A stretch of 64,000 nucleotides of DNA from Raja brachyura. Its lineage: Eukaryota. Shown piece by piece: positions 30,072 through 57,063 of the stretch. The first letter of the stretch is position 1; every line of letters begins with the position of its first letter. The notes under the pieces were generated by a model. It ran no database searches and was not told the origin of the DNA. It worked only from the letters and a program-made list of their open reading frames with translations. The stretch is from contig OY740798.1 in the NCBI GenBank assembly GCA_963514005.1, forward strand, positions 21,266,001-21,330,000, written 5' to 3'. The translations under genes and the position numbers were made by a program.

Positions 30072-30352
30072 TTATTTCTCTGCAAGCTTGCAGAAAACTT
30101 CATGGACTTCGGGATTCTCTTGAGCAAACTGTTCAGCTGTGTTTCTCTGTAACCAGTCAGTTGTTCGAATCTGTTCACGGAGAAGTCCAATCAGACCATC
30201 AAGAGCAGGATCTGGTAGAGATGGCTGGACACCAATTTCTATGACTTCTTCGGCAATTTTGGTCCTACTCTCTGAATCAGAATTTGGCTCTTTATCAAGA
30301 GATTGGATTACTGAATCTTGCTCTTCCAGGACCTTCCAAATTCTGCGCATTC
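30072..30352 (-). CDS. ACCS: ACCS-like last coding exon (GMRRIWKVL...EVHEVFCKLAEK*)
   Basis: ctgttag|GA acceptor and TAA stop. The 14 exons sum to 2048 nt and stay in frame from the phase-1 start to the stop. Confidence 0.88.
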
Positions 30353-31409
30353 CTAACAGAACAAAATCCAAATGTCATTATTTGGGTAAGTGGCAAAATA
30401 CGACTGGTCTATTTATCACATTCAAAATATAAACCATAGGATTAGTTTGAGTCCGCACACAACTCCGTAAAAGTTTTTACTAGAACGAATGCTCAGAATG
30501 TAATCATGTTAGCTAAATAAATCTAGTACAAACATGATGAACTGGGAATTTGTAGGCACCTGACACCCATCACTGACCTAAGATGTTCACACTGATGTAC
30601 TGGGCTCTGCAGCATTGATTTGCCCCATTCCAATGTGCCTTCTCAATTGGAGCCTTCTATTTACACAAGAGTGATGTTGTATGAGGGATGAAGGGAAAAT
30701 AATAGGTAAGAATGAATTAGAAGGGGCTTAATTTCTGCATATTTAAGACAGCAATGGTTCACATTTGCTATCTGTACTTGTAAAGTTAAACCTCGAGGAT
30801 ATGCGGCTAGAGGAATCAAGAGGATAAATCAAAGATTGGCACGATAGCACCATTTTCATAAACCTGGAATATTTGGACTTCCATCGGATTGCAACTGAGA
30901 TAAGAAGATGGTCAGACGAAGCCCAATGACTGTGAGTGAAGTAAGGGAATGTAGCAAAGACCACCAGGGATCTGGGAGGATTGGGAGGGTGGAGTTTGCC
31001 AGGTATGTTCTTGGTACATAACTCAGTTGTGGCAGAACTGGACATTCCATCCCCTGAGTACAGGAGCTGCAAGCCCTGGAGCTGGGGGGGGTTGCATAGC
31101 ACAGGATGATCACACCGGTTTGGAGATGCCAGAAATGACTGTGTACAAGCTTATCTTTACCTGGGTAGTTCTGTCCCAATAAATTACACCATGTCTCTGA
31201 TTAAATATAAAAAATCTACACTTTATGCTAAGGGAAAGAACATATGGGTCTGCACAATGCAATCTTGTACTAATGAAATACCTGGATATTTTCAATCAAG
31301 AGGGCAACATACTTGTTTTTAGGGCAAAGGAATCAAATCAGTTTTCTCCTTCCAAATACTGACAGAATTCCCAAGAGTTGCAATTGTTCCCAAGAATAAT
31401 TGCAACTTA

Positions 31410-31749
31410 GGTGATGGGTGTGTAAAGATACGAAGTAGGTATATCCCTTTTACATTTTTTGGTTTTGTTTTTTCTTTCCCCTTTTTTATATCGTCTTCTT
31501 ATTCTTTGCTTTTTTCCTTTTTTTCTATCTTTCTCGCGCTTTACTTCTTTATGGGCTCTTTTTCTTTACTTTCTCACGAACCATCATCACCATTACCTAA
31601 CCTAACTTTCTCTCTCTCTCTCTCTTTTTCTTGCTTCTGCTATTTTTCTACTGTTAAATTGTTAAACAAGAAGTTGTACAATAAATGTATTATGTTATTC
31701 TTGGTTTATACTACTGTACATGACTTCTAATAAAAATATATTTTAAAAA
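31410..31749 (+). mobile_element. 5'-truncated L1/Tx1-type retro-insertion (3' UTR, AATAAA, A-tail)
   Basis: 18-bp TSD AAGAATAATTGCAACTTA (31392-31409, 31750-31767); T-rich 3' UTR and AATAAA before an A-run. Confidence 0.8.
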
Positions 31750-31808
31750 AAGAATAATTGCAACTTAATCACCAACTGAAAGGCAACAAGTCAAATGACT
31801 TTGGTGGG

Positions 31809-31901
31809 TTACACAAAAAGCTGGAGAAACTCAGCGGGTGCAGCAGCATCTAAGGAGCGAAGGAGATAGGCGACGTTTCGGGTCGAGACCCTTCTTCAGA
31901 C
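31809..31901 (-). mobile_element. Short Penelope-terminus repeat with intact minimal hammerhead motif
   Basis: Reverse complement reads CTGAAGA-A-GGGT-CTCG-ACCC-GAAA-CG-TC (31899-31872); flanked by tgggtt. Confidence 0.7.
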
Positions 31902-32255
31902 TGGGTTGTTGCCGGGTCACCGGTGGGCAAGATGATGGGTAACTGATTCCAAGCATCGATATTGGAACAAAATAGATGACAGTTGGTTTGCAATAAGAAT
32001 CATTGCAATGACTTCAAATCATTAGAAAAAATATTTTGTAATATTGTGATTTGTATGTTTGAACTCAAACTACCTTGCATCTATTGATTTTCTGTAACAA
32101 CTGAAACTGGAATGTCTGAATTGTACTTAAATGTTGTGCTCATTAGCTACACAAGCACTTGTGGCAAATGCATATTTAGATGGGATAGAAAGGCTAACAA
32201 AGATTAAAACTCCAAATGGAAACAAGTAGATGAAAGTTATTGTAACTGTACTCAC

Positions 32256-32409
32256 CTAGTTGTAGCCTACTGGTTTTGTCAGCAAACACAATGCTGAACC
32301 ATCCAGGTTCACAGCACCCAAATGATTTCCCACTGCTGAGAAGGATTTTATTTTTAAGAAATCGCTTCCATAGTTTTGTTTCTTCTTCAAATGTCGGATT
32401 CCTTAAGTA
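32256..32409 (-). CDS. ACCS: ACCS-like exon (YLRNPTFEEETKLWKRFLKNKILLSSGKSFGCCEPGWFSIVFADKTSRLQL)
   Basis: atccag|/|gtgagt, 154 nt; EPGWF motif. Confidence 0.93.
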
Positions 32410-32910
32410 CTGGATAGAAAGATACACACATTACATTTGTGGTTTTCATTGCTGCAGTCTATCTGCTGAATCATGGAACACATTATTATCTAACCCTTGC
32501 CAACATACTAGAAGTCTCAAAACAGGAGGTATGCCTGGATACAAACTGGAAAATATGATTCTCCAATGAAAGACTTCAATTCAATAACACATAAGAGGAT
32601 CCAATTGTTTAAGAATAATCAATTAGTAAGACTTACATAATACAAAGTACTCAATCACCATAATTATTATTAATCCATTCGCTAAAACCCATCCTTTACC
32701 CTCCAGCCTTGAGATTTACTGTCCTGTCAGCATGGTGGAGGGTAATCTCTTTACTGTACTTTCTGTTCTGAACCACCATCTCATCCGCAGGCCAACACTC
32801 TGTTGCCTCAAGTTTGTTCTCCTTTTCTCACTATTTCCTTTCTGCATCTCCCTGATCAGGTGTCTGTCTTTGCCAAGCACTAAAACAGCCCTATACAAAA
32901 TCCCTTATAC

Positions 32911-33116
32911 CAAGGTTTCCCAACCTGGGGTAAATTTCACCTACCCAGGGAGTAAATTTGTTGATTCTGGATTTGTACATATTTTTTCCAATTGACTGAC
33001 CATGTTTGGTTCTGGTGTCTGTTATCATTACTTGTTCATAAATATGTTAAATAACACTGTTATGTGCTATTAAAGTTGCCAGGGGTAAACGGAACAAAAA
33101 AGGTTGGGAACCCCTG
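32911..33116. mobile_element. hAT/Charlie-type MITE
   Basis: TIR caaggtttcccaacct / aggttgggaacccctg; degenerate 8-bp TSD ccttatac/tcctatac with central TA. Confidence 0.75.
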
Positions 33117-34017
33117 TCCTATACTGTTGCTGTGGGTAGTTTTCCTCTGCGTGATATCTCCACAATTTCTATCTCTACTTAAATTAATTTGCTGTTCAAA
33201 TTGTCATCTCTGCATTTGTCATCTCTGCTCTCAACAATTGGCAGAATGCACAAATCATGTATAATTACCCCGAGAGCTAAAATCCTCCGCATTGTTCATA
33301 CAAAATAGCATATAAAGCAATAATGACCAAAAGCTGTCTTATGTTCTTGAAACTTCATGGTAGCGATAGTAAGGAGAGCTAAAAGACTTACTTTTTTATC
33401 AAACACTATGTTACACAGCATAGACCAAATGCACAAATAGAATACAATGCACCCCATGAACTAACAACCCTAATCCTACTTCAACAACAGAACACTATGG
33501 CACTACCATTATTTTTTTTTTTTCGAACTATGTTTTTACACAAATTTTATTTTCTATGCAATGTTCCTCCTTTCCCCCCCGATATTTTGTGAGATTTATG
33601 TATACTTTATGTCCTTGTGTGTTGTTTGAATTGATGTACCCATGATGTGGTCGCATACAAGGTTTTTCATTATACCTGTACCTCACCGTACTTGTGCATA
33701 TGACAATAAACTCGACTTGATATTCTAAAATATTCCCTTCACTCTTGCTTCTCAATGCATTATGATGATACATTTCTATGGCTGCATAACCATACCATCA
33801 CCTTCCATCTTGAGTCCCTCCCACATGAATGAGATCCTACAAAGTCCCTTGGTCTGAAATCAGAAGTAAAGATTCAAAATATGAAAAAACATAAGTTTTA
33901 AACAATTTTATTACATTATAGAATGTATATATTGAAACAACTGAAAATGAATCCTAAATTAATTTCTGGTACAGAAATGAAAGATTCCTTTATGTCCGTC
34001 TTCTGTGCAGTGAATAC

Positions 34018-34160
34018 CTTTCTAAAATCAGTCCAGATATGATGTCCTGCCTGTGGGTTCAAGAAAGGAATGTCCATTGCTATTAATTCATTCGTCATAC
34101 ACTTGTGGGCAGTTTTTAACCTGGCTCGATTTGTTGGTAAAAAAACACGATTGAACCAAT
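34018..34160 (-). CDS. ACCS: ACCS-like exon (WFNRVFLPTNRARLKTAHKCMTNELIAMDIPFLNPQAGHHIWTDFRK)
   Basis: ctctgtag|/|gtattc, 143 nt. Confidence 0.92.
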
Positions 34161-35599
34161 CTACAGAGAAATAGAAAAAAAAAATTTACACAGACGGAAT
34201 GAAAATGTCCTCATCTTGCAAAAGAAAATCTGTTATCCAATTTATAAAGCAGCATTTTTACATCCAACAATTAAAACAGTACTATTTTATCACTTTACTT
34301 TTATTACTGGAATACTGAAATTCAGTATTAATTTTATGTAGAGTCAACTCGCTGGCTTTCCGCTCTGCACTGGACCACTTGGACAATAGAAGGACGTCTT
34401 TTTATATAACTTTTAGCATGTACAAATTGTATCATTAGATATCCTTTTTGCAGGACTTTTACAGGACTAATTTCCAATCTATAAATATAAATCAAAATAC
34501 TGTAGGTAAACATAACAGATCATAATTTAGTCTCAGTCCCTTACAGAGAATACAAAAAAGTAAATAGGACCCACTAATTTTAAATTAAAGAAAATATACT
34601 CTGTTACATTTTGATTATTAAATATAACATACTTTCTATTGACTAACAAGTTACTAAAGAAAGATATGATAACTTATTCATTGTTTATATCTCATCCCTC
34701 CCCACTCTCCTTTGGATTGATACTTAGCCAATTAATGGAGTTTTGACTCTACAAGAGTGCTGGGCTAGCTCATCTCAGTGGCATGATGATACTCAGAACT
34801 GGTTTAAGCAAACTGGTTTAAACTGGTTACAACTGGTTTAAGCAAAACTAATCTAGAAAGGGAAAACTAAAGGCTGTTATTCTTATGGCAGTTCAGTATT
34901 CAGTCATGAGTTGAAAAAAATGGACGCGCATGGTTGTGTTTGGAAAAGAGAAGAATTCAGCTTAACTATAAAACCCTTCAAAATCTAACGTTGATGCAAA
35001 GTCAGATTTTTATTTAACATATTTGGTTCAGCCTCCAAACCTACTGGTCTGTAAAAGTGTACCTTCAGGAAAGTGTGAGGAGAATACCATTAAATCAGTT
35101 AAAACAAAAGGTAACACAATAAAACACTGATAATCTGCCACCTTGAATTTGATGGATGCGGGCTGGCAGATTTTCCAGACCGTCAGATGTTTTTCCTATT
35201 AATACCCAATCACACTTTTGATTTGCTTTTTTTTGTGTTACATAATAGCATAATTAATTCTGCATTGATCCACGTGAGTTTGAAGGGGTACAGGAACAGG
35301 GCCTGGTGAATTTAAAGGTAGCACGGTTTCCAGTGAGTTATAGTCATATAGCAAGGAAAGAGGCCCTTTGGCCCAACTTGCCTATATGCTGAGTTAATAG
35401 GGAATGTGTGAAACAAAACCAACTGAAACCAGTCCAAAGATTGGGATTTCTATGAATTCAGATAGTAGTTTTTTTTGTATTGGATTGGTAATCTTTGATA
35501 GCTACTTGTTGACATCCTAGTTACACAATGGTTTAATGTAAAAGGTGACGTAACACCCATTGACTATACGAGTAACTTTTTAAAAAGCTCTTTGTCATA

Positions 35600-36560
35600 A
35601 GTAGACACTAGGAACTGCAAATGCTGAAATAATGAACAAAGACAAAGTAGTGGAGGAACTCAGCAAAATCTGGCAATTGATACGTGGATAAAGGTGAGGG
35701 GGGGTTTGATCGGCAGATGAGTGGAATAAGTGACAAGGGCTTGAGATAAAATGGAGATAAAAGGTTATCGGTTAACGAGAGGAGTGAAATGTAAATCCAG
35801 AGAGAGGGATAAAAGTTGAAGGGGACAGGGGTAAGGGGGGAAAGAGGGGTAGGATAATGGGATAAATCGGTACACCTAGGGCAGGCCCAGGAAAGAGAGA
35901 TGAGAAAAAGGTGGTGTTACTAAAAATTTGGATAATGCAATGTCCATACCATTGGGTTGTAAGCTTTTCATGGAATACGAGGTGCTGTTCCTCTGGTTTG
36001 CAAGTGACCTCGCTCTGCAATTGGGGAGGCCCAGAACAGAAAAGTTGGTATATGACTGGGAAGGGGAGTTTAAATGGTAAACGACTGGGAGATGCAGCAA
36101 ACCTTGCCAGACTGAGCATGTGTTTGGTGAAATGGTCGCCTGGTCTACACCCCCTCTACTGCAATCAGCCTGAAGAAAGGTCCTGACCCAAAACATTGCC
36201 TATCCATTTCCTCCATATATACTGCCTGACCCACTGAGTTACTGTTTAAGAAGGAACTACAGATGCTGGAAAATCGAAGGTAGACAAAAATGCTGTAGAA
36301 ACTCAGCGGGTGATGCAGCATCTATGAAACGAAGGAAATAGGTGACATTTCGTGTCGAGACCCTTCTTCAGACTAATGTGGGGGTGGGAAGAAGAAACGA
36401 AAAGGCGGAGACAGTGGGCTATGGAAGGGGAAAGAAGGGGAAAGCAGGGACTACACTTCTTCCCACCCTGCTTTCCTTCGCTCCATAAATGCTTCCTCAC
36501 CTGCTGAGTTTCTCTTGCATTTTTGTCTACCATTGAGCTACTGGAGCACTTTATGTTTTG
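35600..36560. mobile_element. Cluster of decayed Penelope-like fragments
   Basis: GIY-YIG C-terminal remnant (..CKPEEQHLVFH..) plus several terminal-repeat copies in both orientations. Confidence 0.65.
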
Positions 36561-36589
36561 CATTTGTCATGTGTCATTTTGCTAATCAG

Positions 36590-37495
36590 CAGAGCTGCCA
36601 AGTTTTGTCAGAGCATTTCAGTACCTGAAAATCAGTATTTTGCTGAGGAAATCAGTATTTTTACGTGACCCCATTTTGCTGAAAAAGTGGGGGGGTTTTA
36701 TGTGCGGTCACAGCCATGTAAGAGTACAAGAATGCATAACTTTGCTACCAATTAACATGTCTTCTCTGCACCTTACTTGACAGTGCATTCATTGCCATCT
36801 CTTTGTATACTGGTGTTTGAAAGGCTGCTTGCTGCTTTTCGCACCAGATGATGATGTAGAAGCCATTTTGGAAGCCTCCCTCGCTCTCCCTCCTTCATCT
36901 CTTCCTCTCCCTACCACCCTCCGTCTCTCTCTCTTCCTCCCCCTCCCTCTCTTCCTCCCCCTCCCTCTTTCCTTCCCCCTCCCTCTTTCCTTCCCCCTCC
37001 CTCTTTTCCTCTCCCTCCCTCTCTCCTTCCTTTTTTTCTCCCTCCCTCTTATTCGCTCCCTCCCTCCCTCCCACTCCCTCTCTCCTTCTCCCTCTCCTAA
37101 CAGTCTGTGACCTATAGCGTTGTGGCCATAGCGCTATGTGTAAAGCCCATAGCATTATGTGTAATGGGAGCGCTATTTTTAGAACCCCTAGCGCAATTTG
37201 TTTAAATTCCCACGCGTTAAACTGACAGCGCTGTTTAAACCTGGAGCGGGACAGGCAGATCGAATAATCATCCAGATCCTGAAATGTAAAAAACTAATAG
37301 ATTTAATCTGCTATAATCTTTAGGGTTACAGTATGACATTTTATATCCTTGCATTTTTTAAGTAGCAAGATGAAACAGGAGGTGGGCTGGGGCTGATTTT
37401 TAAAAATCCGTATTTTACAATGCAAATCCGTACATCCGTATTCTGATCGCATTTCCGTACAAAATACAGAAAATCCGTACTACTTGGCAGCTCTG
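36590..37495. mobile_element. hAT-like non-autonomous DNA transposon with internal polypyrimidine tract
   Basis: 14-bp TIR CAGAGCTGCCAAGT; flanking 6-bp duplication AATCAG; subterminal repeats ATCCGTA and TCAGTA. Confidence 0.75.
36876..37097. repeat. C/T low-complexity tract with 18-bp units (ctcttcctccccctccct)
   Basis: Near-pure polypyrimidine run seen directly. Confidence 0.9.
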
Positions 37496-37749
37496 AATCA
37501 GGAATAATTTTTTAAAAAAAAGACATTCACTGGTTTCCATCATGCTAGTGACCAGTTTTTGAGGAAAAGTGGAAGGATCTAAATGGGTTGTTTAACAAAC
37601 AAAGATGAGCTGCTGTATCTAACAGTTTTGCCCTAGCTTTCCAATGCAGGCAAAGCAATGTATTTCATGTGAAGCAATACATTGCTTAATTGACATATGC
37701 ATTCTATGTACTGTTGGAACATGGGGCATTCTCCACAAGGCATTCTTAC

Positions 37750-37891
37750 CTTGGTCTCTCAGTAACTGTGCTACCATATGTTGTGTGGCAACTGGAACAC
37801 CATGGAAGTGTGACAGTTGGCCAAGGGCACTAATAACATCAGCATTCTCAGTGTGTAGAGTACCTAGATGAAGTCCACTGGCTGTAAAATC
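37750..37891 (-). CDS. ACCS: ACCS-like exon (DFTASGLHLGTLHTENADVISALGQLSHFHGVPVATQHMVAQLLRDQ)
   Basis: gttcag|/|gtaaga, 142 nt; aligns to DFGMSGLRFGTLYTEN...AQLLRDR. Confidence 0.92.
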
Positions 37892-38094
37892 CTGAACAAC
37901 AAAAAAACATGATTAATTTAGTTATCTCCTGATATTGCTCACTGCTCCTCAGTTTGCTTTTGGCATGCAATTTTATCCCAAATTGTCAAGCAAGCAAGGC
38001 CAAGCAACATGGTCCCTGGAAATCAGATACAAAACCATGAAACACTCACTCAATAGGATGCACACTTTTGGAAATTCCGTATTAATTTTATGTA

Positions 38095-39290
38095 AGTTCA
38101 ACTCGCTGACTTTCCGCTCTGCACTGGACCACTTGGGCAATAGAAGGACGTCTGTCAAGCTGTTATTCATACTTATCATCAAACTCAGTGAACTGGGTCT
38201 CTGCTCATCCCTTTATATTTGGATGCTTAACTTCCTCATCGGCAGACCACAATCATTACAAATTGGCAATAAAACTTGCTTCTCGATAACCACAAACACA
38301 GGGGCATCTCAAGGCTGTGTACTCAGTCCCCTGCTCCACTCTCTCTATCCCTTCGACTATGTAACCAGACACGGTCACAAAGCCATCTTTACATTCACAG
38401 ATGATAGCACTATCATTGGACGAATAACGGGTAACGATAAATCGGAGTACAGGAGGGTGATGATAATCTGATTAAATGGTGCCTGAACAACAATCCTGGT
38501 CTCAGCGGTAACAACAATCTTGGTCTCAACAACCAATGAGCTGGTTGTTGACTCTAGGAAAGGACCTGCCTTCATTGATGGGACAGTGGTGGAGTAAGTT
38601 AATAGGTACAAGTTCTTGGGAATACATATCTCTGAAGATCTGTGCTGGACCCAACACATCGATGCAATGAAATAAAACTCATCAGTGCCGCCAGTTCCTT
38701 AGAAGATTGAGGAGATTTGGTATATTGCTGAATACGCTATCAAACCTCTACAGGTGTAAGTTAGAGAATATTCTGACTGGTTGCATCACCACTTGGTTTG
38801 ATATTTAGAATGCCCAGGAACGAAGGAAGCTGCAGAAAGTGGTAGACATTCCCAGTTCATCATGGGCACAGACCTCTCCACCATCGAAGGGATCTCAAGA
38901 GCGCTGCCTCAAAAAGACATCTCATATCATGAAAGACCCACACAACCCTGGCCACACGCTCATCCCACTACTACCATCTGGAAGAATGTACAGGAGTCTA
39001 AAAACCGTGACCTTCAGGTTCAAGAACAACTTCTTCCTAGCAATAATCAAGCTCTTGAACGCCGCAGCTCCCTAAACGCAATCCTTTCTCAGTAACTATG
39101 ATGTATTATGGACTTTATTTTTGTTTGTATTATGTACTTTGGTTTTGCTCTATTGTGGTTTGTTACTTTGTCTTACTGATAATTAAATTTATTGTATAAT
39201 TGATTCTTGTGTATCTATGTGTTGTTGCAGCATTGTAAAGCTGTAAAGCTGCAGCATTGTTCCTTGCCAGTACAAATGACAATTAAATAG
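38095..39290 (+). mobile_element. Rex1/Babar-like LINE 3' fragment, decayed
   Basis: RT motifs TGASQGCVLSPLL..FTDDSTIIG and C-terminal LLPSGRMYRSLKT..FKNNFF. Similar decayed pieces at ~8930-9460 (-), 13450-13930 (-), 23640-24540 (-) and 53250-53640 (+). Confidence 0.8.
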
Positions 39291-41480: not shown

Positions 41481-41526
41481 CTTTCTAATTCCCCACATAA
41501 CATGAGTTCTCTGTGGATCAGGAAGC
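41481..41526 (-). CDS. ACCS: ACCS-like exon (LPDPQRTHVMWGIRK) with the PLP Schiff-base Lys
   Basis: tttttcag|/|gtaaat, 46 nt; aligns to LPDPQRTHVMWATSK. Confidence 0.92.
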
Positions 41527-44775: not shown

Positions 44776-46760
44776 CAATTTCTACCTTTTCAGTCACAGC
44801 AGCTGAAATTGCTGCTGAAACTCAAAAGGACACAGTGCAAAAACCAGTACACGAACAAACTTTGTGTGGATGGTCAGAAATAAAACCAAGTACTAATCAC
44901 CTAAAACCATATCACAATAAATGACATGAACTGTCATGTAAGCAAGGGTGTTTTAAATGGGATCACAGTGTAGTAATTGTTTAAGACAAAGATTCCATAA
45001 AGAACTCCATCGTGAACACACAAGTCTTGTGGGAATGAGGTCTACAGCCAGAGGTTGCATGTATTGGCCAGGATTGGACAATGACATAGAAGCAATGGCA
45101 AGCAAATGTAGCACCTGCCAAGAGTTGTAGAAGTAGGCCTGCCCAAACGCCTTTGCAAACATGGTCTTGGCCCACTAGACATTTTCAGAGGATTCATGTG
45201 GATTTTTGTGAAGACGGGAATAATAATTTTCTTGTTTTGGTAGATAGTCACTCAAAGTGGATTGAGGTGGTACATATGGGTACAAACACAACAACAGAAA
45301 GAAGAATAGACGCATTGTGGTCTATCTTTGCATGTCATGGATTACCTGAAGATCTTGTCTCTGACAACGGCCCCCAATTTCGTGCTGCACTGTTCCAAAC
45401 CTTCATGAAGCTAAATGGTATCAAGCATACCTTAGTGCCAACTTACCATCCGGCATCTAACGGCGCAGCCGAAAGGTCAGTCAGGATAGTCAAAGGAGCT
45501 CTCAAGAAACAAGTTCTTGAAGGGAATTCAAAATTCAGTATGTCACAGCGGCTAGCTAGTTTCCTACTGAAATATCGTACTATGCCACAATATACTGCAG
45601 GGTAAACGCCAGCTGAACTAATGAAAAGAAGGCTCAGAACTAGACAGAGTTTGGTTCTACCTAACTTATCTCCTGAGGTTGAACGAAAACAATTTGATCA
45701 GAAACGTCATTATGGCGGAGGTAAAAAAGAACGTAGGTTTGATACCCTTGATCAGGTTCGTGTTCTCAGAAAAATGTACAATCAGTACAAAGCAAAAAAT
45801 GGGAGGTGGGAACAGTAGTTGAAGTGCGTGGTACCAGGAGGTACTTGGTAGAAATTGGAGGACATGGTAGAAGTGTGCACATAAACCATACGATCCCAGC
45901 AAGAGCAAAGCACAGTTGAAGAAGTAGATCTGTGAGACTTTGGTATTAATGCAAGTTCAGATATAAAATCAGAACCTCCAAAGAAAGTAGAGATAAGGGT
46001 AAATGATGCTGAACGTGACTCTCCTTTAGAACCACAACCTGACACTTCCCCTAAACCACCCAGGAGATCAGAAAGAGTGCGTAAACCAGTCGTCAGATTA
46101 ACTTTATAAAATTAGTCTTGTTTGTCTAATTTACAAGTTATTTTACTTTCTAAGGGGAGAGCAGTGTAGTGTATATAATTATAACTGTAACATTAAGAAT
46201 TGAGTACTTTCATGGTATGATCTGTTTTGTGTGATATATTCTATATCTTATCAGTCTCATGAATATGTGTGACAATGTGCAGTGTACTTTTGCAAAATAA
46301 AGAAAACTCACACAGGCAACAGCATGTGCTGAAAACCTGTGCTTGTTTCGATCTACATGCTGAAGACGTCATATCTTACATAGATGAGGGAGATGAATTT
46401 GCACCAGAAATACCTCTTGATACCTGCCATTTGTTAGAGCTGGAGTTAGGGGTGAAGGCAGGACAATTTGTGTTTAAGGAACAATTGAAAGGACTGAGGA
46501 AACAGTTGTGGGCCAGTTACTGGGATTAGGTGGGGTGCGGATTTGGGGAGGGTGGATGGCAGAGGTTGGTGTGTGTCAGCCTCACCCCGTGGAGAGAGCA
46601 GGTGGGCAACAACGTTCCTCAACAACTCGCCTCAGAGGCTCTTTAAAAAAGACAATGGGTTTCTGACAGATGATAATATAAAAGTCAAACACACCAATAA
46701 TTGTAAAAGCAGGAAAATAATTAGGAGACGTACAATATTTAATATTAAAGTAACACTCAC

Positions 46761-46850
46761 TTGTCAAAGCTGAGGATACTTTGGAATGAATTTACGTCAT
46801 CAAATACGGAAAGCATGTACACTTCATCCACAATTACATGCAATTTGTAT
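46761..46850 (-). CDS. ACCS: ACCS-like exon (YKLHVIVDEVYMLSVFDDVNSFQSILSFD)
   Basis: gtag|/|gtgagt, 90 nt; DEVY PLP-pyridine-binding motif. Confidence 0.94.
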
Positions 46851-48190: not shown

Positions 48191-48291
48191 CTTTTAGCAA
48201 AGCCAAGAAATTCTTTCATTTCTGTTGCTGAATAAATATCACCCAGGGGATTGTGAGGGTTTGTTAGAATCATGGCTGTGACCTTCTTACC
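48191..48291 (-). CDS. ACCS: ACCS-like exon (GKKVTAMILTNPHNPLGDIYSATEMKEFLGFAK)
   Basis: cacag|/|gtgaga, 101 nt; NPxNPLG class I aminotransferase motif. Confidence 0.94.
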
Positions 48292-48514
48292 CTGTGATAA
48301 CACAGAAAAATTATTAGGGCTATTGCAAAACAACCTTACAATGAAAGGTTAGTATAAGTGAAGATTTTAAGAGTCATTTTTGGAGTCATGCAATGGTAAT
48401 TATAATACCCAAAATACAAAGTGCATCATTAAACTTGTAATTAATTTTGTGTCAGGTACTTCCATTTCTCATTCTGATTTACAAGTGTTTCCACCTTGCT
48501 TTCACTCTTAAATT

Positions 48515-48820
48515 TAGTTTAGAGATACAGCTCAGAAACAGGCTCTTCGACTCACCGGGTCTGCACCGACCAGCGATCCCCGCACATTAACACTATCCTA
48601 CACACATTAGGGACAATTTACATTTATACCAAGCCAATTTACATACAAACCTGTACATCTATAGAGTAAGGGGAGGAAACCAACGATATTGGAGAAAACC
48701 CACGCAGATCACGAGGAGAACGTACAAACTCCGTACAGACAAGCACCTGGAGTTAGGATTAAACCCGGGTCCCTGGCGCTGTAAGGCAGCAACTCTACTG
48801 CTGCGCCACAGTGCTGCCCA
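48515..48820 (-). mobile_element. tRNA-derived V-SINE (HE1-like)
   Basis: Reverse complement of the same head (gggcagcactgtggcgcagcagtagagttgctgcc), core and CR1-like tail. Confidence 0.8.
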
Positions 48821-49120
48821 AATTGTGGAATATATTTTAAATAAACTATGAGATAGCTATTGTATAATCCTTAATGTAATAACCTGACTTAGCACTGGAA
48901 TTCCCATTCAGCTCAATGGGGATTCTGACCTGGAGCTGAGAAAAAGGTTCCGTTCAGTTAGTTAGTTTTTCTAAACATGTTTTCCTCTTTCATTGTTGTA
49001 ATTTATCGCAACAAAAGCCTTTCACTGTACCTCGGTACAAATGACAATAAACTAAACTGAAACCAAATCTGAAAAATTACTATCTACAATCAAAATGATG
49101 AACATTTCTGAATCATTCAC

Positions 49121-49198
49121 CTGGAGCTTTGCAGCTTCCATTGATTTTTTCAGCTTTCCCACTGTAAGTTGAAATGGACGTGTGTCACCATCAGTCAC
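49121..49198 (-). CDS. ACCS: ACCS-like exon (VTDGDTRPFQLTVGKLKKSMEAAKLQ)
   Basis: cctag|/|gtgaat, 78 nt; TRPFQLTV motif. Confidence 0.92.
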
Positions 49199-49739
49199 CT
49201 AGGCAAATACACAGCAAGACTTGGGTTTACACTTATAATTCTCTATGATATCAATTTCCACCTTTCTCAACTATACAATTAACATTACATGCAAACTGAA
49301 GCCAATACTAAGGGCTCATCCAACTTTCCTTTGGCAAAACTATATGTCTGCAGTTTGCATAGTTGGAGAACTGTGGACAGTGGGATATGAGGAGAATTAA
49401 AAAATACACTTTCCCATTATGACTGGTGTGGCAGGGCCCAGAAATGAAAAGGAATCATGTTATGCATATAAGAGGCTGATGTATGCATTCTGATTCAATT
49501 CAAGGGTGTCTTAGTGATTACATTGAACTTATATGTACAACATACATCTTGATCAAAAATACTCTCAAATACTAGTTCTAAACACAATGTTGGTTCTTTG
49601 ATTACAGTACAGATCAACCTTGCTTGAATAATTTTCATTCACTCAAACAGAAGCTCAATGATTTGGACAGGTTTTACAATAAGCAACTACTAAATACAAG
49701 GAACCACAAAGTCATGTTTTCAAATGTTTTTACTCTTAC

Positions 49740-49837
49740 TTTGCTCTCCAAATGCACATGCAAAGGTTTGACTTTGCTGTAGAGAAAAATATCATCCTTG
49801 ATAACACCATAGTATGGTGTGGGTAGAAGAATTCTAT
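49740..49837 (-). CDS. ACCS: ACCS-like exon (RILLPTPYYGVIKDDIFLYSKVKPLHVHLESK)
   Basis: gacag|/|gtaaga, 98 nt; PTPYYG motif. Confidence 0.93.
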
Positions 49838-50829
49838 CTGTCAACACAGAAGGAAAACAGTTACATTAAAGTAATTTTAGTAAATAGCCAGCAACTTAGA
49901 ATATAAATAGTCCTTTACAATTGAACAAAACAATTTTATGAATGAATGAAAGAATTAATTAATGACACTTCAGCATACTTGTTGCAAGTAACCAATGTTC
50001 TATGGCTGAATAGTGAAACCGGTTTATGAAAACAATTTTTAAAAACAAGACAAATGTGTGGTTTTATTCAAAATTCTATTTTACCAATAAGCATCCTGAT
50101 TTAGGTGCAAATATGGGATATAAATTCAGGCAGATAAATGGTTTAGGTTTACTATTGTCAAATGCTATGAGGTACAGTGAAAAGTCTTGTTCTGCATGCT
50201 ATCCAAACAGATCAATACAGCATGCATGGAATACATGCAGGGATATACTGAAGTCTCCCTATCGCACTTTCAAAAGTCTCCTGTTTGTCAGACATCCCTT
50301 TACCTGCAAATAGCATCTCCCAGTCAACTTTAGAGTTCCTGTCTGATGCCATAAAAATAACCCTTCCCACAATTTAGGCCATTAATTTATGAACCAGTCC
50401 AACCATTTTCCATGACCATCTTGAAACGTATAGAATTATGGTCATCGATCCCAAAGTGCTTCCAACCATTGATAAGGTAAACTCATCCACTATCACAATC
50501 CTGTTGTTCTTACAGCTATCTGCAAACTCCCTGTATATATTCCCTCTAATTCCTGCTGACTATTAGAGGGAGGGATAAGGCTACAATATAATTCCATCAA
50601 TGTGGTCACTCTTTCTTTATTTTTAAAGTTCTCCCCAAATAGCCTTGCTGGATGTTTCCTGGCACATCCTCTCTTCAATCAATGCTGCAATCCCTCCTAA
50701 ATTACCTCCATCTCTCTCACTCTGGAAGCATCAGTTTCCTGCAACATTGAGCTGCCAGTCTTGTCCATCACTCAACCACATTTCTATGATAGTTATAATA
50801 TCATAATCCCATGTGCCGATCCATGCTCC

Positions 50830-51340
50830 AAGTTGATCCAATGTCTTTTGCTATCGAGGGAGTGCAGCATAGGTTCACCAGACTGGTGGGACCAGTGGGA
50901 CTGACATATGATGAAATAATGGGTCGACTGGGCTTGTTTTCATTGGAATTTAGAAGGATGAGAGGGGATCTTACAGAAACATATACAATACAAGGCTAGA
51001 TGCAGGAAAAATGTTCCCGATGTTGGGGGAGTCCAGAACCAGGGATCAGTTTAAGAATGAGGGGTAGGCGATTTAAGACCACGATGAGGAAAAACGTTTT
51101 CACACAGACAGTGGTGAAACTGTGGAATTCTCTGCCACAGAAGGCAGTGGAGGCCAATTCACTGTATAATTTCAAGAGAGAGTTAGATTTAGTGCTTAGG
51201 GCTAACGGAACCAAGGGATATGGGGAAAAAGCAGGAACGGGTACTGATTTTGGATGATCAGCCATGACATATTGAATGGCGGTGCTGGGTCGAAGAGCCG
51301 AATGGTCTACTCCTGCACTTATTTTCTATGTTTCTATGTC
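50830..51340 (+). mobile_element. CR1 LINE 3' fragment
   Basis: RRMRGDLTETY..FTQTVVKLWNSLPQ; (ttctatgt)n tail. Confidence 0.88.
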
Positions 51341-51933
51341 TTACCTGCAAGGCCTCTTGCTTTGAAGCAAACTAGCTGTTCAGACCATCCATGCTCTCTG
51401 TTCTGCCCCAAGCCTTGTCTGGCCTGCCTCCTAAACATGCAGCTTTAATCTCTATACGTAGTTCAACAGTCCCAACTGGATCATTGATAAAGCAGCTGAT
51501 GGTAACTGGACTATAGATGTTATCCTGAGGCAACAAGGAATATTAGCAGTAATATCCTGAATCTGCAATGATTAGCCTGTAACAATCATGAGCATGTTTA
51601 CCTGTTGAGAACGGGGAGGTGGAGAAACCAAGGGTGTCTGTGGCCCTTTGTTACTAACTCATTTGAATAGTGTTTGTAGCAAGCACAGTTACTCTCAATC
51701 CTGTTCTACTTTTTAGTTTTAATATTTATTTCTGGATCAGGGACTGAGTTTTTAACATATTTTTACGTCCATTTCAAACACTGACAGTAGTTTAAAAGGT
51801 AATTTTACAATATTGATATGTCAAATGTCGTGGAACAATATCACATCCACAGTACAACTTTAACCCACTGAAAAACAAAACCAATTATTTTGTTGTTCAA
51901 ATAAACAACTACACAGTTTTGGCCTTCACCTAC

Positions 51934-52000
51934 CTCCAGGATCACAGAGCACAGCAGACAATGAGGAAAAGAGAGATCCACATCCATTAACCACCACTAT
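51934..52000 (-). CDS. ACCS: ACCS-like exon (IVVVNGCGSLFSSLSAVLCDPG)
   Basis: ttctag|/|gtaggt, 67 nt. Confidence 0.92.
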
Positions 52001-52629
52001 CTAGAATAATGACAAAGGTATTGAATGCATCATTCTTGGTTACAAAGTAATTAATGTATACGTATTACATCTGTAAGGAAAAATGACACCTACTCAAACT
52101 CCAGCTGTAAACAAAATTGGGAGACAAGGTGGTGTTCATCCAATTTGCATGTGGCCTCACTCTGGCAATGGAGGAGGCCCAGGCAAGAAAGATCAGAATG
52201 GGAAAGGGAGTCAAAGTGGTTAGCAACCGGAAGATCCAGTAGGCATTGGCGGACAGAGTGGCATTTGGCAAAATGGTTGTGGAGTCTATAATTGGTCTCA
52301 CTGATTTACAGAAGCCCATATCGGGAACACTGGACGCAGTAGATTGAAATATTTCCACAGGTACACAGGAATGCAGAGTTGGTGATAGAAACTGATCAGC
52401 CATGAGGTTATTAAATTGCAGAGTAGACTTGAGGGTCTGAGTGGCATTCTCTTCCTCCTAGTTTGTAGGTTCAACCAGGCTAATGGACCAGGCTAATTCA
52501 AAGATCTGCCACAAAATGTCATGAAGAGATAGAAGTGAAATTAACCATTCACATTCTCTGTAATGCTGCTTATTAAAATTAAAGTTTAATATGCCCTTTT
52601 TTCTTTATATTGGTTACTCCATTACTCAC

Positions 52630-52699
52630 GTTGTCAGGCTTGAGGTATACAGATGCCTTACAGTGATGCGTCAAAAACCTTCCAACTTCCACTCTGAGA
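52630..52699 (-). CDS. ACCS: ACCS-like exon (LRVEVGRFLTHHCKASVYLKPDN)
   Basis: cctcag|/|gtgagt, 70 nt, frame continuous. Confidence 0.9.
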
Positions 52700-54161
52700 C
52701 TGAGGTGGCAGAAAAAAGAAAAGACAAAAGGTGATAGATAAATGTACCTCTTGCACATTCCTTCATGTTTAAATTCTGGCTTGAAGCAAAACATACATTA
52801 ACAAAATTATCAGGTTAAAAGAAGTAAGAAGTAAACAGTGTCAGCAATATTACTTAAATGCTTATATTTCTTTCTTATAAAATGATTCTTTGTTGCTGGC
52901 TTCAAGGAGTGAAAAATGCACCATGGTGAGTTTCTGAAGCACAGTAATGTTGGGGTTTAATAGAGATAAGGAAATGTCAAGCAATGAAAAAGTTATCAGT
53001 TGAGATTATCTACTTCAGTCAACTTAAAAAATAGCAAGCAATAATGGAACTTTGGAACTCAATGTGTACAAGATTAAAGTTTTCAGTATGATAAAAACAG
53101 TTCAATGTTACCGAAGGCATTTAGTAAAAAGTCTCAACAGGCTACATTTATGCTTGGATTGTGTTTTATAGCTTTTCCAGTCATCATAGTTTTAAGACAA
53201 GGTTTGGCGCTGATATTACCCCACTTTATGTTTACCAAAGGATGAGGAGTGGAAGAGGGGATGATGGGAAACATTGGATGAAACGGGAGGTCTGCAATCT
53301 TCTTAGGGCCACAATTCGGGCAATCAAGTCTGTTGTCCAGGTATGACCTCGATAAGGCCATCAAAAAGGCTAAAAGGGGTTTCTGCTCTAAATTAGAGGA
53401 TGAGACAGATATTCAACAGCTGTGGCTGTGCTACGAGGCAAAACCAAGTGGCAGCTCAAGGGACAATGAGGCATTACTCCTGGGCAAGCTCAATGTATTC
53501 TATGCACACTTTCATAGGGAGAATATTGAATACTCAGGGCTCCCATTGTACCCCAATGATACTGTAATCTCAGTCACCAAGGTTGATGTCAGAAGATCCT
53601 TCATGAGGGTGAACCTTCAAAAAGTTTCTGGAACTGATCTGGGGTTCCCACCTGCTTCATATTCCTTTCTCTGGCTTCACAATTTGCACTCTTCTATCCT
53701 TATCACACACTCTTTGTCTTTTCATCTGTGGTCTTTGTCCAGCCATCTGCCAGTCAACCCCCCCCCCCCTCACCTGTATCCACCTATCACTCGTCAAGCT
53801 TTGCCTTGCCCCCACTTCTCATCGAGCTTTCCCTCCCCACCAGAATCAGTTTGAGGAAGGGTCCTGACCTGAAACGTGACCTGTCTGTGTTCTCCAAAGA
53901 TGCTACCTGACCCACTAAGTTACTCCAGCATTTTGTGTCTTTTTGTGTAAACCAGCGTCTGCAGTTCCTTGAGTCGCTCTAGATTTCATTTTAATATCTA
54001 AACTGAAACAACAGAACATCTCTAACGTTATGCACTGAAATATTAACCCAGAACATGTAGACAGCTTCCGATTTTTGACTCAGTATATGTTCGTGGATGC
54101 ACATTCAAATTAATATGATGTAACATCAATAAACTACAAATTAAAATCACACAGTACTTAC

Positions 54162-54232
54162 AATTCTTGTCCATTCCAGTCTGGACATTCCAAGAGTGGC
54201 AGGTCCATCTGCATTACGTCAGTCTGCATCAC
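54162..54232 (-). CDS. ACCS: ACCS-like exon (VMQTDVMQMDLPLLECPDWNGQE)
   Basis: ttttgcag|/|gtaagt, 71 nt; aligns to LLQYADWRGH of human ACCS. Confidence 0.88.
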
Positions 54233-54578
54233 CTGCAAAAAAGAACAATCAACTGTTCAATTGAACGTGCTTAAAACATGTTAATTATTTAATAACTATA
54301 AACCTACAAGTCAGTTATGAAAATGGTTTAAACTCTGTTGTGAGTTCATTTGGAAATGTAGAGTTTTATGTGAAAGAATCTGGACATGAAACAGAAAGAC
54401 AACCATAAATCTTCTGAAGAAATCTAATATAGGAACTTTTGTTGAAAGCATGAAAAACATTATTGCTTTAAATTGCTTTAAACATTAGCATATGAAAAAG
54501 TTAAATGATGTAAGTTTCATTTAGGAAGGCCATTTAAATCATTCTTTGAATGATATAAAAGTGTACAAATTGACATAC

Positions 54579-54638
54579 CCTTTTGGAAAGAAGATCAAAG
54601 CACAGCTTGTTTTCACTGGTTCCCAGATTGATAATGCC
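54579..54638 (-). CDS. ACCS: ACCS-like exon (GIINLGTSENKLCFDLLSKR)
   Basis: cag|/|gtatgt boundaries; ACC-synthase box 1 motif. Confidence 0.93.
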
Positions 54639-55233
54639 CTGGAACAAAGATGAAAGTACATCAAATATAATGACATACATCTGAACAAAAGTAAATTATA
54701 TGCAAACATAATTTGCAAATTGTCCTACAATGTCAGTGTTCGGCGGCTCCAATTCTACCATCAAAGTCCAATTTAATTTAAAGCATGTAGAAGGCCTTTC
54801 TGAATTTTCACTGACTCTGCTTTGTAACATTAATAGTTACATTATTTACACACAACAAACTGTATTTAAAACAACATAGACATTGCTGGAAATGAGTTTT
54901 CCACCGTACTGAAATCCGCAGTTTTTGCTGATTTATGAGAATGAAAAGGAGAGAAAATATTCTTCACGTCTCTGTACATCAGCTACGCAGCAAACATAAA
55001 TCATACAATGATTTCCAGGGAGACCAAAGGAAATGATAAACCAAGGACATTGTTCCTGGCACATAATGACCAAAGGCAACCTCCTCCCATAGATTTGGTA
55101 AATGTAAGATTAACATGCCTATTACAACATTTGATTAATAAATTTACATATCAGAAAGAGCTTTTAGATCTCTGTTTACTTCAGTTTTAAAAACAGCAAA
55201 AAACTATTCATCATTCCATCAATTATCAACATT

Positions 55234-55480
55234 TACATAGATACATGGACAATAGGTGCAGGAGGAGACCATTCGGCCCTTCGAGCCAGCACCACCATTC
55301 AATGTGATCATGGCTGATCATCCACAATCAGTACCCTGTTCCTGCCTTCTCCCCATAATCCTTGATTCCGCTAGCCCTAAGAGCTCTATCTAACTCTCCT
55401 TAGAATGCATCCACGACCTTCTGAATCAGCCTCCACTGCCTTCTGAGGCAGAGAATTCCAAAAATTCACAACTCTCTGTG
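55234..55480 (-). mobile_element. CR1 LINE 3' tail fragment
   Basis: Same tail sequence as the other CR1 copies (aataggtgcaggag..ccattcggcccttcgagcc). Confidence 0.85.
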
Positions 55481-56416
55481 AGATATTCTTAGTATAGTGA
55501 AGATTATAATGAAATTATTTCTTAGTATAATGAAGATTAAAACTGACTCAAATTTCATCGATGTGATTTGTAAACTTTCTTATTGACTGCATTGGAATGA
55601 AGATTAAATATTACAAAGTGAACAAAAATCAACACTGCAGAAATAGAAACAACTTTAACAACCACCAATAAAGCTCCTGTAAGAACTTTCCGTGGGTAAG
55701 TGCAGTGATCCAGAGTGGTGCAAAAAACAAACTGCTGGTGGAACTCAGCGGGTCAGGCAGAATCTGTACAGGCAAAGGGAAAGTCAACGTTTTGGGTCAC
55801 AACCCTGCATCAGTCCTGATACAGTCATACATCACCCAAAACTTCAACTATCTCTTTGTCTCCATTGATGTTGCCTGACCGCTGAATTCCTTCAGCAATT
55901 TGCTTTTTGCTCCAGAATCCAACATTTAATCTCCTGTGGATAGAAAGTTATGCATAGACAATAAACCTGTGTGCAGTGTAGTGCCCGCAACAAACGTGAA
56001 ACTTAATGTACAATATTCATAATGTACATATGTTAAAAGGATCAAGACTATAACATTTTTCATATGTACCAAACTGCAAGGTAAGTAAACCCAAGCCCAT
56101 GAATATCCCAAGACAACTGTGTGACAATTTTCCACCATCTCCACTTAATATTAAAATATTAAAGATTTGGACAGCTTTATGTGTGGAAATTAATCTTTCA
56201 CTGTGACTAAAGTCTCTTAAATAGATTCTTCTTACTGTGTCTTAAAAATCAAAGCCCAGAACCGTGGTAAAACATATTAACCAATCTGAAATTGTATATA
56301 GATTTAATTGACGTAGCTAACAAATCCCAAACAGAAAGTGATTGAATACAAATGCCCAAACTAAAGTAGTCATTCAGACCTACACTTGGTTATTTAACAC
56401 AGCTTAATACACTCAC

Positions 56417-57063
56417 ATTCGGGTTTTTGTCTTCATCGTACTTATCTGCGTGATGCGCAGGAGAATCTTTCTGAAATATTCCAAAAAAATTCTTAATTTC
56501 ATTTCCTCTTTTCGATAAATAAATACTTGACTGAAGCTGCTGGAATGTGGGATTCAACTCTGCATGAGTTGTAACATCTCTCAATCCATTTGGTAAAGGT
56601 TTGCTCTGATGCTGGAGCACTCTACTGCTACCATCTTTGGAGGTGGAGGCTGAGCTCGGGCTACCAACTGTTTCAGTAGCTTGGTCAGAAGACTGTGAGA
56701 AGACCCGGCTGAGGTCCAAGCCCAAGTTCTGCATGGAGCCACCGTGTCGAAGCGCATTCACCATCTGAGCAAAGATGGTGAACATTCTGTACTCGTGCTC
56801 CCTTTCCAGCTCCATCCGGCGCTGTTCCAGTTGCATCCGCCTGTCCTCTAGTTCCATGTCCCGTTGCATTCTGCGCTCCTCCATTTGTAGGAAACGTTCC
56901 TCCACTACTCTCTGCGCTGTGAGAAATTTAAGAAGAATGTCATCTAAGGGATCCTTCACCCGGGGTGGCTTCCTCTTCCGGCGAAGTCTGTGTAGGGTGG
57001 AAAATGCAGGCCCCGAGGTGTGCATTCCTGAAGACGTGCCACCTATATTCTGATTGACATAGT
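56417..57063 (-). CDS. ACCS: ACCS-like gene, large exon: basic stretch, coiled coil, linker and start of the ACC-synthase-like domain
   Basis: atttcag|AC acceptor and AAT|gtgagt donor. Ends SSIYLSKRG...DKYDEDKNPN, matching the vertebrate ACCS N-terminus (YLSSRG...DEYDEDKNPS). Starts in phase 1, so further exons lie upstream. ACCS versus a paralogue cannot be settled from the sequence alone. Confidence 0.88.

What the first reader, a model, noticed from the sequence alone, without database searches (positions are those of the whole stretch)
30072..57063. Intact ACCS-like gene whose PLP active site has been rewired: candidate pseudoenzyme or ligand sensor
Seen: 14 exons with canonical splice sites and no stops or frameshifts. 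The PLP Lys (41481-83), NPHNPLG, DEVY and PTPYYG are retained, but four positions differ from the ACCS/class-I aminotransferase consensus. (1) PGWFR to PGWFS (AGC, 32293-95). (2) G-x-R-x-G to GLHLG (CAT, 37868-70). (3) S-K to R-K (AGA, 41484-86). (4) LQYxDWxG to LECPDWNG (TGT, 54185-87). Established: in fold-type-I PLP enzymes the first Arg (Arg386 of aspartate aminotransferase) binds the substrate alpha-carboxylate, while the second Arg (Arg266), the Ser before the Lys and the cross-subunit Tyr anchor the PLP phosphate. Human ACCS keeps these residues and lacks ACC synthase activity. Inference: this copy no longer turns over alpha-amino acids. It may bind a non-carboxylate amine or B6 vitamer, or act as a scaffold. 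The new Arg next to the Lys could compensate for the lost phosphate-binding Arg.
Basis: partly seen in the sequence, partly recalled or inferred. Interest (0 to 1): 0.85.

Follow-up and report, generated by a model that had tools for sequence, protein, structure and literature searches.

The report
Ray-wide dead ACCS enzyme domain
Skates and rays have lost two active-site arginines of the vitamin-B6 enzyme domain of ACCS that sharks and other vertebrates keep, yet the gene is still spliced and conserved, so the enzyme part is likely dead and the attached predicted DNA-binding part is likely what selection protects.

Summary
The four codons and 14 exons are real, but the gene is larger than reported. 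A 15th exon about 4 kb beyond the window encodes a Myb/SANT domain, giving a 902-aa Myb/SANT + coiled coil + PLP-fold protein, the skate orthologue of vertebrate ACCS. The changes are not private. R671H and R797S are fixed in 10 of 10 batoid sequences (four orders) and 0 of 10 sharks. S662R is skate-only and Y472C arose twice. Stingrays, sawfish and electric ray lost further PLP contacts independently (Y535Q, Y629F, G660E, C510H). Active-site positions changed 11 times in batoids against once in sharks (other positions 170 vs 211; p=0.002). The rest of the fold stays constrained: no indels, 7 of 9 known differences synonymous, a rate no higher than the paralogue's, and spliced contigs in four runs. 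Best reading: a pseudoenzyme domain kept for its fold inside a probable chromatin or transcription protein. A compensating Arg or a new-ligand pocket is not supported, because six batoids lack that Arg and each lineage erodes the site differently. No activity was measured. New variant of a known kind; interest 0.5.

The parts
57064..64000 (-). In-window part of intron 1; it runs on to coding exon 1, which lies outside the window (G000:C18:21333797-21334457, window-equivalent 67797-68457; start codon, Myb/SANT-like domain PF13837 aa 12-99, His-rich linker)
56417..57063 (-). Exon 2 (aa 221-436): basic RRKRK stretch (56983-56969), predicted long helix aa 259-326 (56950-56747), linker, start of the PLP domain
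54579..54638 (-). Exon 3 (aa 437-456), NLGTSEN motif
54162..54232 (-). Exon 4 (aa 457-479); Cys472 (54187-54185) replaces the Y-x4-G Tyr; Trp475 kept
52630..52699 (-). Exon 5 (aa 480-503)
51934..52000 (-). Exon 6 (aa 504-525), G509-C510-G511 phosphate loop, kept
49740..49837 (-). Exon 7 (aa 526-558), PTPYYG; ring-stacking Tyr535 kept here, Gln in stingrays and mantas
49121..49198 (-). Exon 8 (aa 559-584)
48191..48291 (-). Exon 9 (aa 585-617), NPHNP, Asn598 kept
46761..46850 (-). Exon 10 (aa 618-647), DEVY; Asp626 and Tyr629 kept here (Phe in 6 non-skate batoids)
41481..41526 (-). Exon 11 (aa 648-663); Arg662 (skate-only) and PLP Lys663, whose AAG codon is the last exon codon before the GT donor
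37750..37891 (-). Exon 12 (aa 664-710); His671 (37870-37868) replaces the phosphate-binding Arg in all batoids examined
34018..34160 (-).
32256..32409 (-). Exon 14 (aa 759-809); Ser797 (32295-32293) replaces the carboxylate-binding Arg in all batoids examined
30072..30352 (-). Exon 15 (aa 810-902, stop); conserved helical tail aa 855-902 (30218-30075)

Best explanation
This is the skate orthologue of vertebrate ACCS, a spliced 902-aa Myb/SANT + coiled coil + PLP-fold protein whose enzyme domain lost both active-site arginines in the ancestor of skates and rays and is now likely a catalytically dead module kept for its fold. Shown: gene structure, transcription, the batoid-wide Arg losses, later erosion of other PLP contacts in single lineages, and continued constraint on the rest of the domain. 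From established fold-type-I chemistry: without the Arg386-type residue an alpha-amino acid is not anchored, and without the Arg266-type residue the PLP phosphate loses its main counter-ion. Inferred: once these two were gone, selection on cofactor and substrate contacts lapsed, so each lineage lost others at random. Selection now acts on the near-invariant Myb/SANT domain, the coil and the tail (DNA/chromatin binding, inferred from family) and on a folded PLP domain that would act as a dimerising or spacing scaffold. Lys663 likely persists at least partly because its AAG codon forms the exon side of a splice donor.
For: His671 and Ser797 in 10 of 10 batoid sequences; Arg at both in 10 of 10 sharks and the chimaera. 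Among 224 fetched proteins (isoforms included), the Arg281-type site is Arg in 191 and His in 17 of 208 readable; the Arg407-type site is Arg in 181, Ser in 18 and His in 1 of 200 readable; every His671/Ser797 row is a named batoid or an unnamed sequence 97-99% identical to the window protein. The later changes differ by lineage: Y535Q and T443P (4 myliobatiforms), Y629F (6 non-skates), G660E (Pristis), C510H, G669A and Y751D (Narcine), Y472C twice, S662R and Y751H (skates). Fold constrained: no gap in the domain in 10 of 10 batoids; distance between batoid orders 0.14 in the domain vs 0.21-0.25 in the flanking linkers and 0.014 in the Myb domain; domain distance no larger than for the paralogue with an intact site (Leucoraja-Heptranchias 0.183 vs 0.202; Leucoraja-Rhinoraja 0.026 vs 0.068); 7 of 9 known coding differences synonymous, p 0.0006-0.003 against neutrality. 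Exon 13-14 joint seen in 4 of 4 runs. The model of P0001 matches apple ACC synthase, E 4.6e-35, TM 0.88 by target. The residues are first-shell contacts in AAT and ACS (passages).
Against: No activity or PLP binding was measured and no pocket geometry was available. Lys663, Asp626, Asn598, Glu445 and Trp475 are kept in 10 of 10 batoids, and skates also keep Tyr535 and Tyr629, so weak PLP binding is possible. The synonymous count is tiny, and differences near contig-piece ends were not listed. The domain is slightly faster in batoids than sharks (0.14 vs 0.11). DNA binding and dimerisation are inferred from family only. The natural reaction of intact vertebrate ACCS is not known to me, so 'dead' is relative to fold-type-I chemistry.
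Confidence: 0.7

Rival explanations
1. Rewired pocket: the domain still binds PLP or another B6 vitamer and now senses or acts on a ligand without a carboxylate, with Arg662 standing in for the lost phosphate Arg.
For: Lys663, Asp626 and Asn598 are kept in 10 of 10 batoids; His671 and Ser797 are themselves unchanged in 10 of 10, which could mean selection on the new residues; Arg662 is fixed in 4 of 4 skates.
Against: Six of 10 batoids have His671 without Arg662. The ring-stacking Tyr, the DEVY Tyr and phosphate-cup residues are lost in different lineages. The bacterial sensor GabR uses both a phosphate Arg (Arg319) and a carboxylate Arg (Arg430) (passages). The Lys codon also forms the exon side of a splice donor.
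Confidence: 0.13
2. Weakened but working enzyme: residual lyase or deaminase activity on an unknown substrate persists and is what selection maintains.
For: Schiff-base Lys, Asp and Asn are kept, and the domain evolves no faster than the paralogue with an intact site.
Against: Both Arg are conserved from bacteria to elephant. Active-site positions change 11 times in batoids vs once in sharks.
Confidence: 0.09
3. Slow decay: the domain is dispensable and only the reading frame is kept, so that the conserved C-terminal tail is made and the mRNA is stable.
For: Slightly higher rate in batoids than sharks (0.14 vs 0.11); 34 vs 24 of 147 otherwise invariant non-active-site positions altered; placental orthologues are about 500 aa and lack both the N-terminal part and the tail, so the modules are separable.
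Against: No indels in the domain in 10 of 10 batoids; the domain is more conserved than its linkers; parsimony changes at 186 other conserved positions 51 in batoids vs 57 in sharks; mostly synonymous differences.
Confidence: 0.07
4. Assembly error or private alleles.
For: None for the four sites. The window protein does carry a few private changes elsewhere, such as Gly614 and Trp815.
Against: Same residues in Amblyraja, Leucoraja, Rhinoraja and unnamed transcript-length sequences; spliced contig identical over exon 14.
Confidence: 0.01

Closest known systems
Vertebrate ACCS (ACC synthase-like protein 1), Myb/SANT-fused form of sharks, chimaera, coelacanth, ray-finned fish, amphibians, reptiles, birds, monotremes and marsupials
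   Same: Same architecture PF13837 + PF00155, 902 aa, 82-86% identical to full-length shark proteins; groups with shark and chimaera orthologues in the domain tree. RefSeq gives the batoid proteins the ordinary name.
   Different: Both active-site Arg are lost in batoids only; skates also lack the Tyr and the pre-Lys Ser.
Placental ACCS (human ACCS/PHACS type)
   Same: Same PLP domain; elephant, golden mole, colugo and camel keep all four residues. That human ACCS binds PLP, deaminates vinylglycine and makes no ACC is recalled (Koch et al. 2001, not retrieved); a table in PMC1282579 says only that human homologs have a different function.
   Different: About 500 aa, no Myb/SANT domain or tail; site intact.
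Plant ACC synthase (apple 1M4N, tomato 1IAX)
   Same: Best sequence and fold match among solved structures.
   Different: Gln83 and Tyr85 are Pro473 and Trp475 here, as in most shark and placental orthologues; Arg281 and Arg407 are lost.
MocR/GabR bacterial regulators
   Same: A DNA-binding domain joined by a linker to a fold-type-I PLP domain (abstract and passages).
   Different: Winged HTH rather than Myb/SANT; GabR uses the phosphate and carboxylate Arg that batoids lost. An analogy of architecture, not homology of the DNA-binding part.
MSANTD1-4, NAIF1 and TSNARE1 (Harbinger-derived Myb/SANT proteins)
   Same: Myb-like trihelix domain; best Atlas look-alike of aa 1-335 is a chordate trihelix cluster with PF13837, score 0.91.
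   Different: No PLP fold is described for them in the passages read. ACCS is not named in the main text of PMC9392472. A Harbinger origin was not tested.
Chondrichthyan ACCS paralogue B (G000:C2:68462711-68492811)
   Same: Same fold, similar exon layout, open 482-aa frame.
   Different: No Myb domain, about 46% identical over the domain; all four residues kept in 3 of 3 other skates and 3 of 3 sharks, but Cys273 replaces the phosphate Arg in this assembly.

Membership tests
Vertebrate ACCS orthologue group | PF00155 domain grouping with shark, coelacanth and tetrapod ACCS | tested here: met
   Quick ML tree (the careful search did not finish): batoid clade SH-aLRT 100, within elasmobranch A clade 95; unrooted, and the position of long-branch paralogue B is unreliable
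Vertebrate ACCS orthologue group | N-terminal PF13837 domain and conserved tail (non-placental form) | tested here: met
   PF13837 aa 12-99, 73.5 bits, cut-off 27, on P0001; exon found at C18:21333797-21334457
Vertebrate ACCS orthologue group | Linkage with EXT2 (human neighbour, recalled) | tested here: inconclusive
   Exostosin-family exons lie on the same contig C18 at 1.48-1.51 Mb, about 20 Mb away; identity as EXT2 not shown
Active fold-type-I class I/II PLP enzyme | Fold type I structure | tested here: met
   AlphaFold2 model of P0001, Foldseek E 4.6e-35 to 1M4N
Active fold-type-I class I/II PLP enzyme | Schiff-base Lys, ring Asp and Asn (AAT Lys258, Asp222, Asn194) | tested here: met
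   Lys663, Asp626, Asn598
Active fold-type-I class I/II PLP enzyme | Substrate-carboxylate Arg (AAT Arg386, ACS Arg407) | tested here: not met
   Ser797
Active fold-type-I class I/II PLP enzyme | Phosphate-binding Arg, Ser and Tyr (AAT Arg266, Ser257, Tyr70) | tested here: not met
   His671, Arg662, Cys472
Active fold-type-I class I/II PLP enzyme | PLP binding and turnover | not testable with these tools
   needs recombinant protein
Plant ACC synthase | Gln83 (Q98 of AtACS7) and Tyr85 | tested here: not met
   Pro473 and Trp475 (role of Q98 from passages)
MocR/GabR regulators | GntR winged-HTH DNA-binding domain | tested here: not met
   Pfam finds PF13837 and no GntR family at E up to 0.1
MocR/GabR regulators | PLP domain with phosphate and carboxylate Arg for ligand sensing | tested here: not met
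   lost in batoids, kept in sharks and tetrapods
MocR/GabR regulators | Ligand-dependent DNA binding or transcription control | not testable with these tools
   needs experiment
Pseudoenzyme | Expressed, intact gene with catalytic residues lost and fold under purifying selection | tested here: met
   the synonymous test rests on 9 differences
Pseudoenzyme | Measured lack of activity and a shown non-catalytic role | not testable with these tools
   none

The most novel reading that the evidence does not exclude
Non-placental vertebrate ACCS is a eukaryotic counterpart of GabR/MocR: a Myb/SANT transcription or chromatin factor switched by PLP and an amino acid bound in its enzyme-like domain. 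Batoids made it ligand-independent by losing the two arginines, and placental mammals took the opposite route, keeping the enzyme domain and dropping the DNA-binding part.
Probability: 0.2. Interest if true: 0.85.

Novelty: new variant of a known kind. Interest (0 to 1): 0.5.

Why it matters
ACCS is an orphan vertebrate PLP protein. Batoids supply a natural active-site knockout, held across all four orders, in the same protein whose Myb/SANT domain is almost invariant. This argues that in non-placental vertebrates the indispensable job of ACCS is not catalysis, and it gives a ready shark-versus-ray pair (82-86% identical) for testing PLP binding, activity and DNA binding. It is also a clean case of stepwise pseudoenzyme formation: two founding losses, then independent erosion. 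Pseudoenzymes as such are common and no phenotype is known, which limits the score.

Tried and rejected
Complex prediction of aa 8-330 with the tail aa 852-902 gave no verdict (score 0.00, alignments not used); it is not used as evidence either way. The ESM Atlas gave no usable hit for the tail. No listed run is on record as RNA; transcription rests on contigs that join exons. The first read lay was swamped by intronic repeats and showed only 5 exonic differences. A full dN/dS was not possible because no orthologous coding DNA could be fetched. The motif count for co-occurrence of Myb domain and tail (first part) used too strict a pattern and is dropped; the alignment view is used instead. The careful tree did not finish, so the quick tree is cited. 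The papers on human ACCS activity and on tomato Arg286 mutants were not retrieved and remain recalled. Literature searches for ACCS with vertebrate, Myb, Harbinger, zebrafish, skate or pseudoenzyme terms listed nothing on this fusion or on batoid ACCS; one search matched 715 papers and only 15 were listed, one search listed 20 of 26, and subscription journals are not covered, so absence from print is weakly shown. Supplements of PMC9392472 were not read and could list ACCS. Earlier scan findings: none. Rejected: private mutation or assembly error; spare decaying duplicate; Arg662 compensation as the reason the gene is kept.


Full report
Observation. The gene is on the minus strand. The four codons and the retained motifs are at the stated places. 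Using P0001, an unnamed 902-aa relative that is 887 of 902 identical, I placed 14 exons in the window; all have AG acceptors, the 13 introns between them have GT donors, and the frame is open to the stop at 30072. The first in-window exon starts at a splice acceptor in phase 1. The start codon and a Myb/SANT domain lie in a 661-nt exon about 4 kb beyond the window. The full protein has 15 coding exons and 902 aa. It is 98.4-98.6% identical to Leucoraja and Amblyraja, so the window comes from a skate.

Anatomy. Pfam on P0001: PF13837 at aa 12-99 and PF00155 at aa 438-804. The AlphaFold2 model of P0001 (60-row alignment, mean pLDDT 61.7, long linkers disordered) shows a helical Myb domain, one long helix at aa 259-326, a confident PLP domain and a low-confidence helical tail. 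Its best solved match is apple ACC synthase (E 4.6e-35, TM 0.88 by target). The same fusion is annotated in sharks, chimaera, coelacanth, lungfish, ray-finned fish, amphibians, reptiles, birds, monotremes and marsupials. The three placental orthologues aligned are about 500 aa and lack the N-terminal part and the tail. In a quick tree of 51 domains the window protein falls in a batoid clade (SH-aLRT 100) inside the elasmobranch orthologues (95); the tree is unrooted and the long branch of paralogue B may be misplaced.

What the four residues are. Alignment to apple ACS maps His671 to Arg281, Ser797 to Arg407, Arg662 to the Ser before Lys273, and Trp475 to Tyr85 (residue roles from passages of PMC10813531 and PMC1282579). 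With three bacterial class-I aminotransferases, positions 472, 662, 671 and 797 are Tyr, Ser, Arg and Arg in 3 of 3, and position 751 is Tyr in 3 of 3. Tyr70, Ser257, Arg266 and Arg386 are first-shell contacts in E. coli AAT (passage of PMC3823064; PMC9430417 passages agree). That single Arg mutants lose orders of magnitude of activity is my recall, not read here.

Distribution. I compared 10 batoid sequences (the window, three named skates, Pristis, Hemitrygon, Hypanus, two Mobula, Narcine), 10 sharks, a chimaera and other vertebrates. His671 and Ser797: 10 of 10 batoids, 0 of 10 sharks. Across all 224 fetched proteins, isoforms included, the first site was readable in 208 (191 Arg, 17 His) and the second in 200 (181 Arg, 18 Ser, 1 His in an Apodemus protein); all His671/Ser797 rows are batoids or unnamed near-copies of the window protein. 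Arg662 is in 4 of 4 skates only. Cys472 is in skates and Mobula but not in Hemitrygon, Hypanus, Pristis or Narcine, so it arose twice. Other lineages lost other contacts: Y535Q and T443P in 4 myliobatiforms, Y629F in 6 non-skates, G660E in Pristis, C510H, G669A and Y751D in Narcine. Lys663, Asp626, Asn598, Glu445 and Trp475 are kept in 10 of 10.

Targeted loss. Parsimony on a fixed tree gave 11 changes at 16 active-site positions in batoids and 1 in sharks, against 170 and 211 at the other 399 positions (p=0.0017). I drew the list from published contacts after seeing the changes. Of positions nearly invariant in 21 non-elasmobranch vertebrates, 6 of 12 active-site ones are altered in some batoid and 0 of 12 in sharks (p=0.014); for the rest the counts are 34 and 24 of 147.

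The fold is still constrained. No batoid has a gap in the domain. Mean distance between batoid orders is 0.014 in the Myb domain, 0.027 in the coil, 0.14 in the PLP domain, 0.21-0.25 in its flanking linkers and 0.062 in the tail; shark orders give 0.11 for the domain. The domain diverges no faster than paralogue B, whose site is intact in other skates. Contigs of related organisms gave 6 listed differences in exons 13-14, all synonymous, and 2 in exons 7 and 9, one synonymous. Adding Thr754, a replacement known from proteins but not listed because it lies near a piece end, gives 7 of 9 synonymous against 22-29% expected (p 0.0006-0.003). A few further differences near piece ends were not listed, so this is a rough check.

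Expression. Contigs from 4 of 4 runs join 32409 to 34018 across the 1608-nt intron with canonical ends. A 4006-nt contig of X17 matches exons 13 and 14 with 0 differences, and a contig of the same length and depth matches exon 2 with 0 differences. The runs are not on record as RNA, but exon-joined contigs indicate spliced transcripts.

Second copy. Two own-genome searches found ACCS-family exons only on C18 and C2 (the first used a stricter filter). The C2 gene is an open 482-aa frame with no Myb domain. Three other skates and three sharks keep all four residues in it, but this assembly has Cys273 for the phosphate Arg. I did not check that codon in reads. Whether B buffers the loss in A is untested.

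Mechanism. Most likely (0.7) the batoid ancestor lost both arginines, and with them amino-acid turnover and tight PLP binding; later lineages eroded the pocket independently, while selection kept the fold and the near-invariant DNA-binding part. A shared new ligand site (0.13) would predict conserved PLP contacts and is at odds with the scattered losses; Arg662 cannot be the general rescue because 6 of 10 batoids lack it. Lys retention is weak evidence of PLP binding, since its AAG codon directly precedes the donor gtaaat (the splice constraint is inference). Scaffold and DNA-binding roles are inferred from family.

Comparison and novelty. The layout recalls GabR/MocR, but the DNA-binding domain differs and GabR uses Arg319 and Arg430 for phosphate and carboxylate (passages of PMC6917764). 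The sensor idea therefore fits sharks and tetrapods better than rays. The fusion is visible in public Pfam annotation; I found no paper on it or on the batoid losses, within the limits of the library and without reading supplements. Papers were seen as search listings or found passages only; none was read whole. Verdict: real, a lineage-wide pseudoenzyme domain in a known orphan gene; new variant of a known kind; interest 0.5.

Noticed in passing
L005:9074-9215 (G000:C2:68489074-68489215): Paralogue B has Cys273 (TGT) where 3 of 3 other skates and 3 of 3 sharks have the phosphate-binding Arg, so in this assembly neither ACCS-family gene has that Arg. A second private Arg-to-Cys change is at 332. 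Not checked in reads.
   Followed up: partly
G000:C2:68468419-68468421 (L003): The third intron of paralogue B starts with a GC donor.
   Followed up: no
window about 3100-5766 (+): Two exons of a LIM-only gene (LMO4-like, name recalled), convergent with ACCS; its last exon has no match above 56% identity elsewhere in the genome search.
   Followed up: partly
window 30075-30218 (-), aa 855-902: Conserved helical C-terminal tail of no known family, present in Myb-fused orthologues and absent in the three placental ones aligned.
   Followed up: partly
window exon 9 (48191-48291) and exon 15 (30072-30352), minus strand: Private replacements Gly614 (Glu in all other aligned sequences) and Trp815 in this assembly; its end branch is longer than those of other skates, 0.016 vs 0.002-0.009.
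   Followed up: no
window 58000-61300 (-): GC-rich fragments of an LTR retroelement (gag-, RT/RNase H- and integrase-like frames, broken; identification recalled) inside the first intron; a further integrase-like fragment at 45090-45605.
   Followed up: no
window 12873-13226, 18685-19413, 50996-51325: CR1/L2-type LINE reverse-transcriptase tail fragments (family recalled).
   Followed up: no
G000:C9:48855269, C18:29406526, C26:15389646: Three other loci with Myb/SANT-like matches 37-44% identical to exon 1.
   Followed up: no
P0148 (Myotis, second domain), P0190 (Apodemus): Mammalian ACCSL-like proteins also show active-site loss (DEVY Tyr and ring Tyr changed in P0148; His for the carboxylate Arg in P0190), a separate case of erosion in this family.
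   Followed up: no
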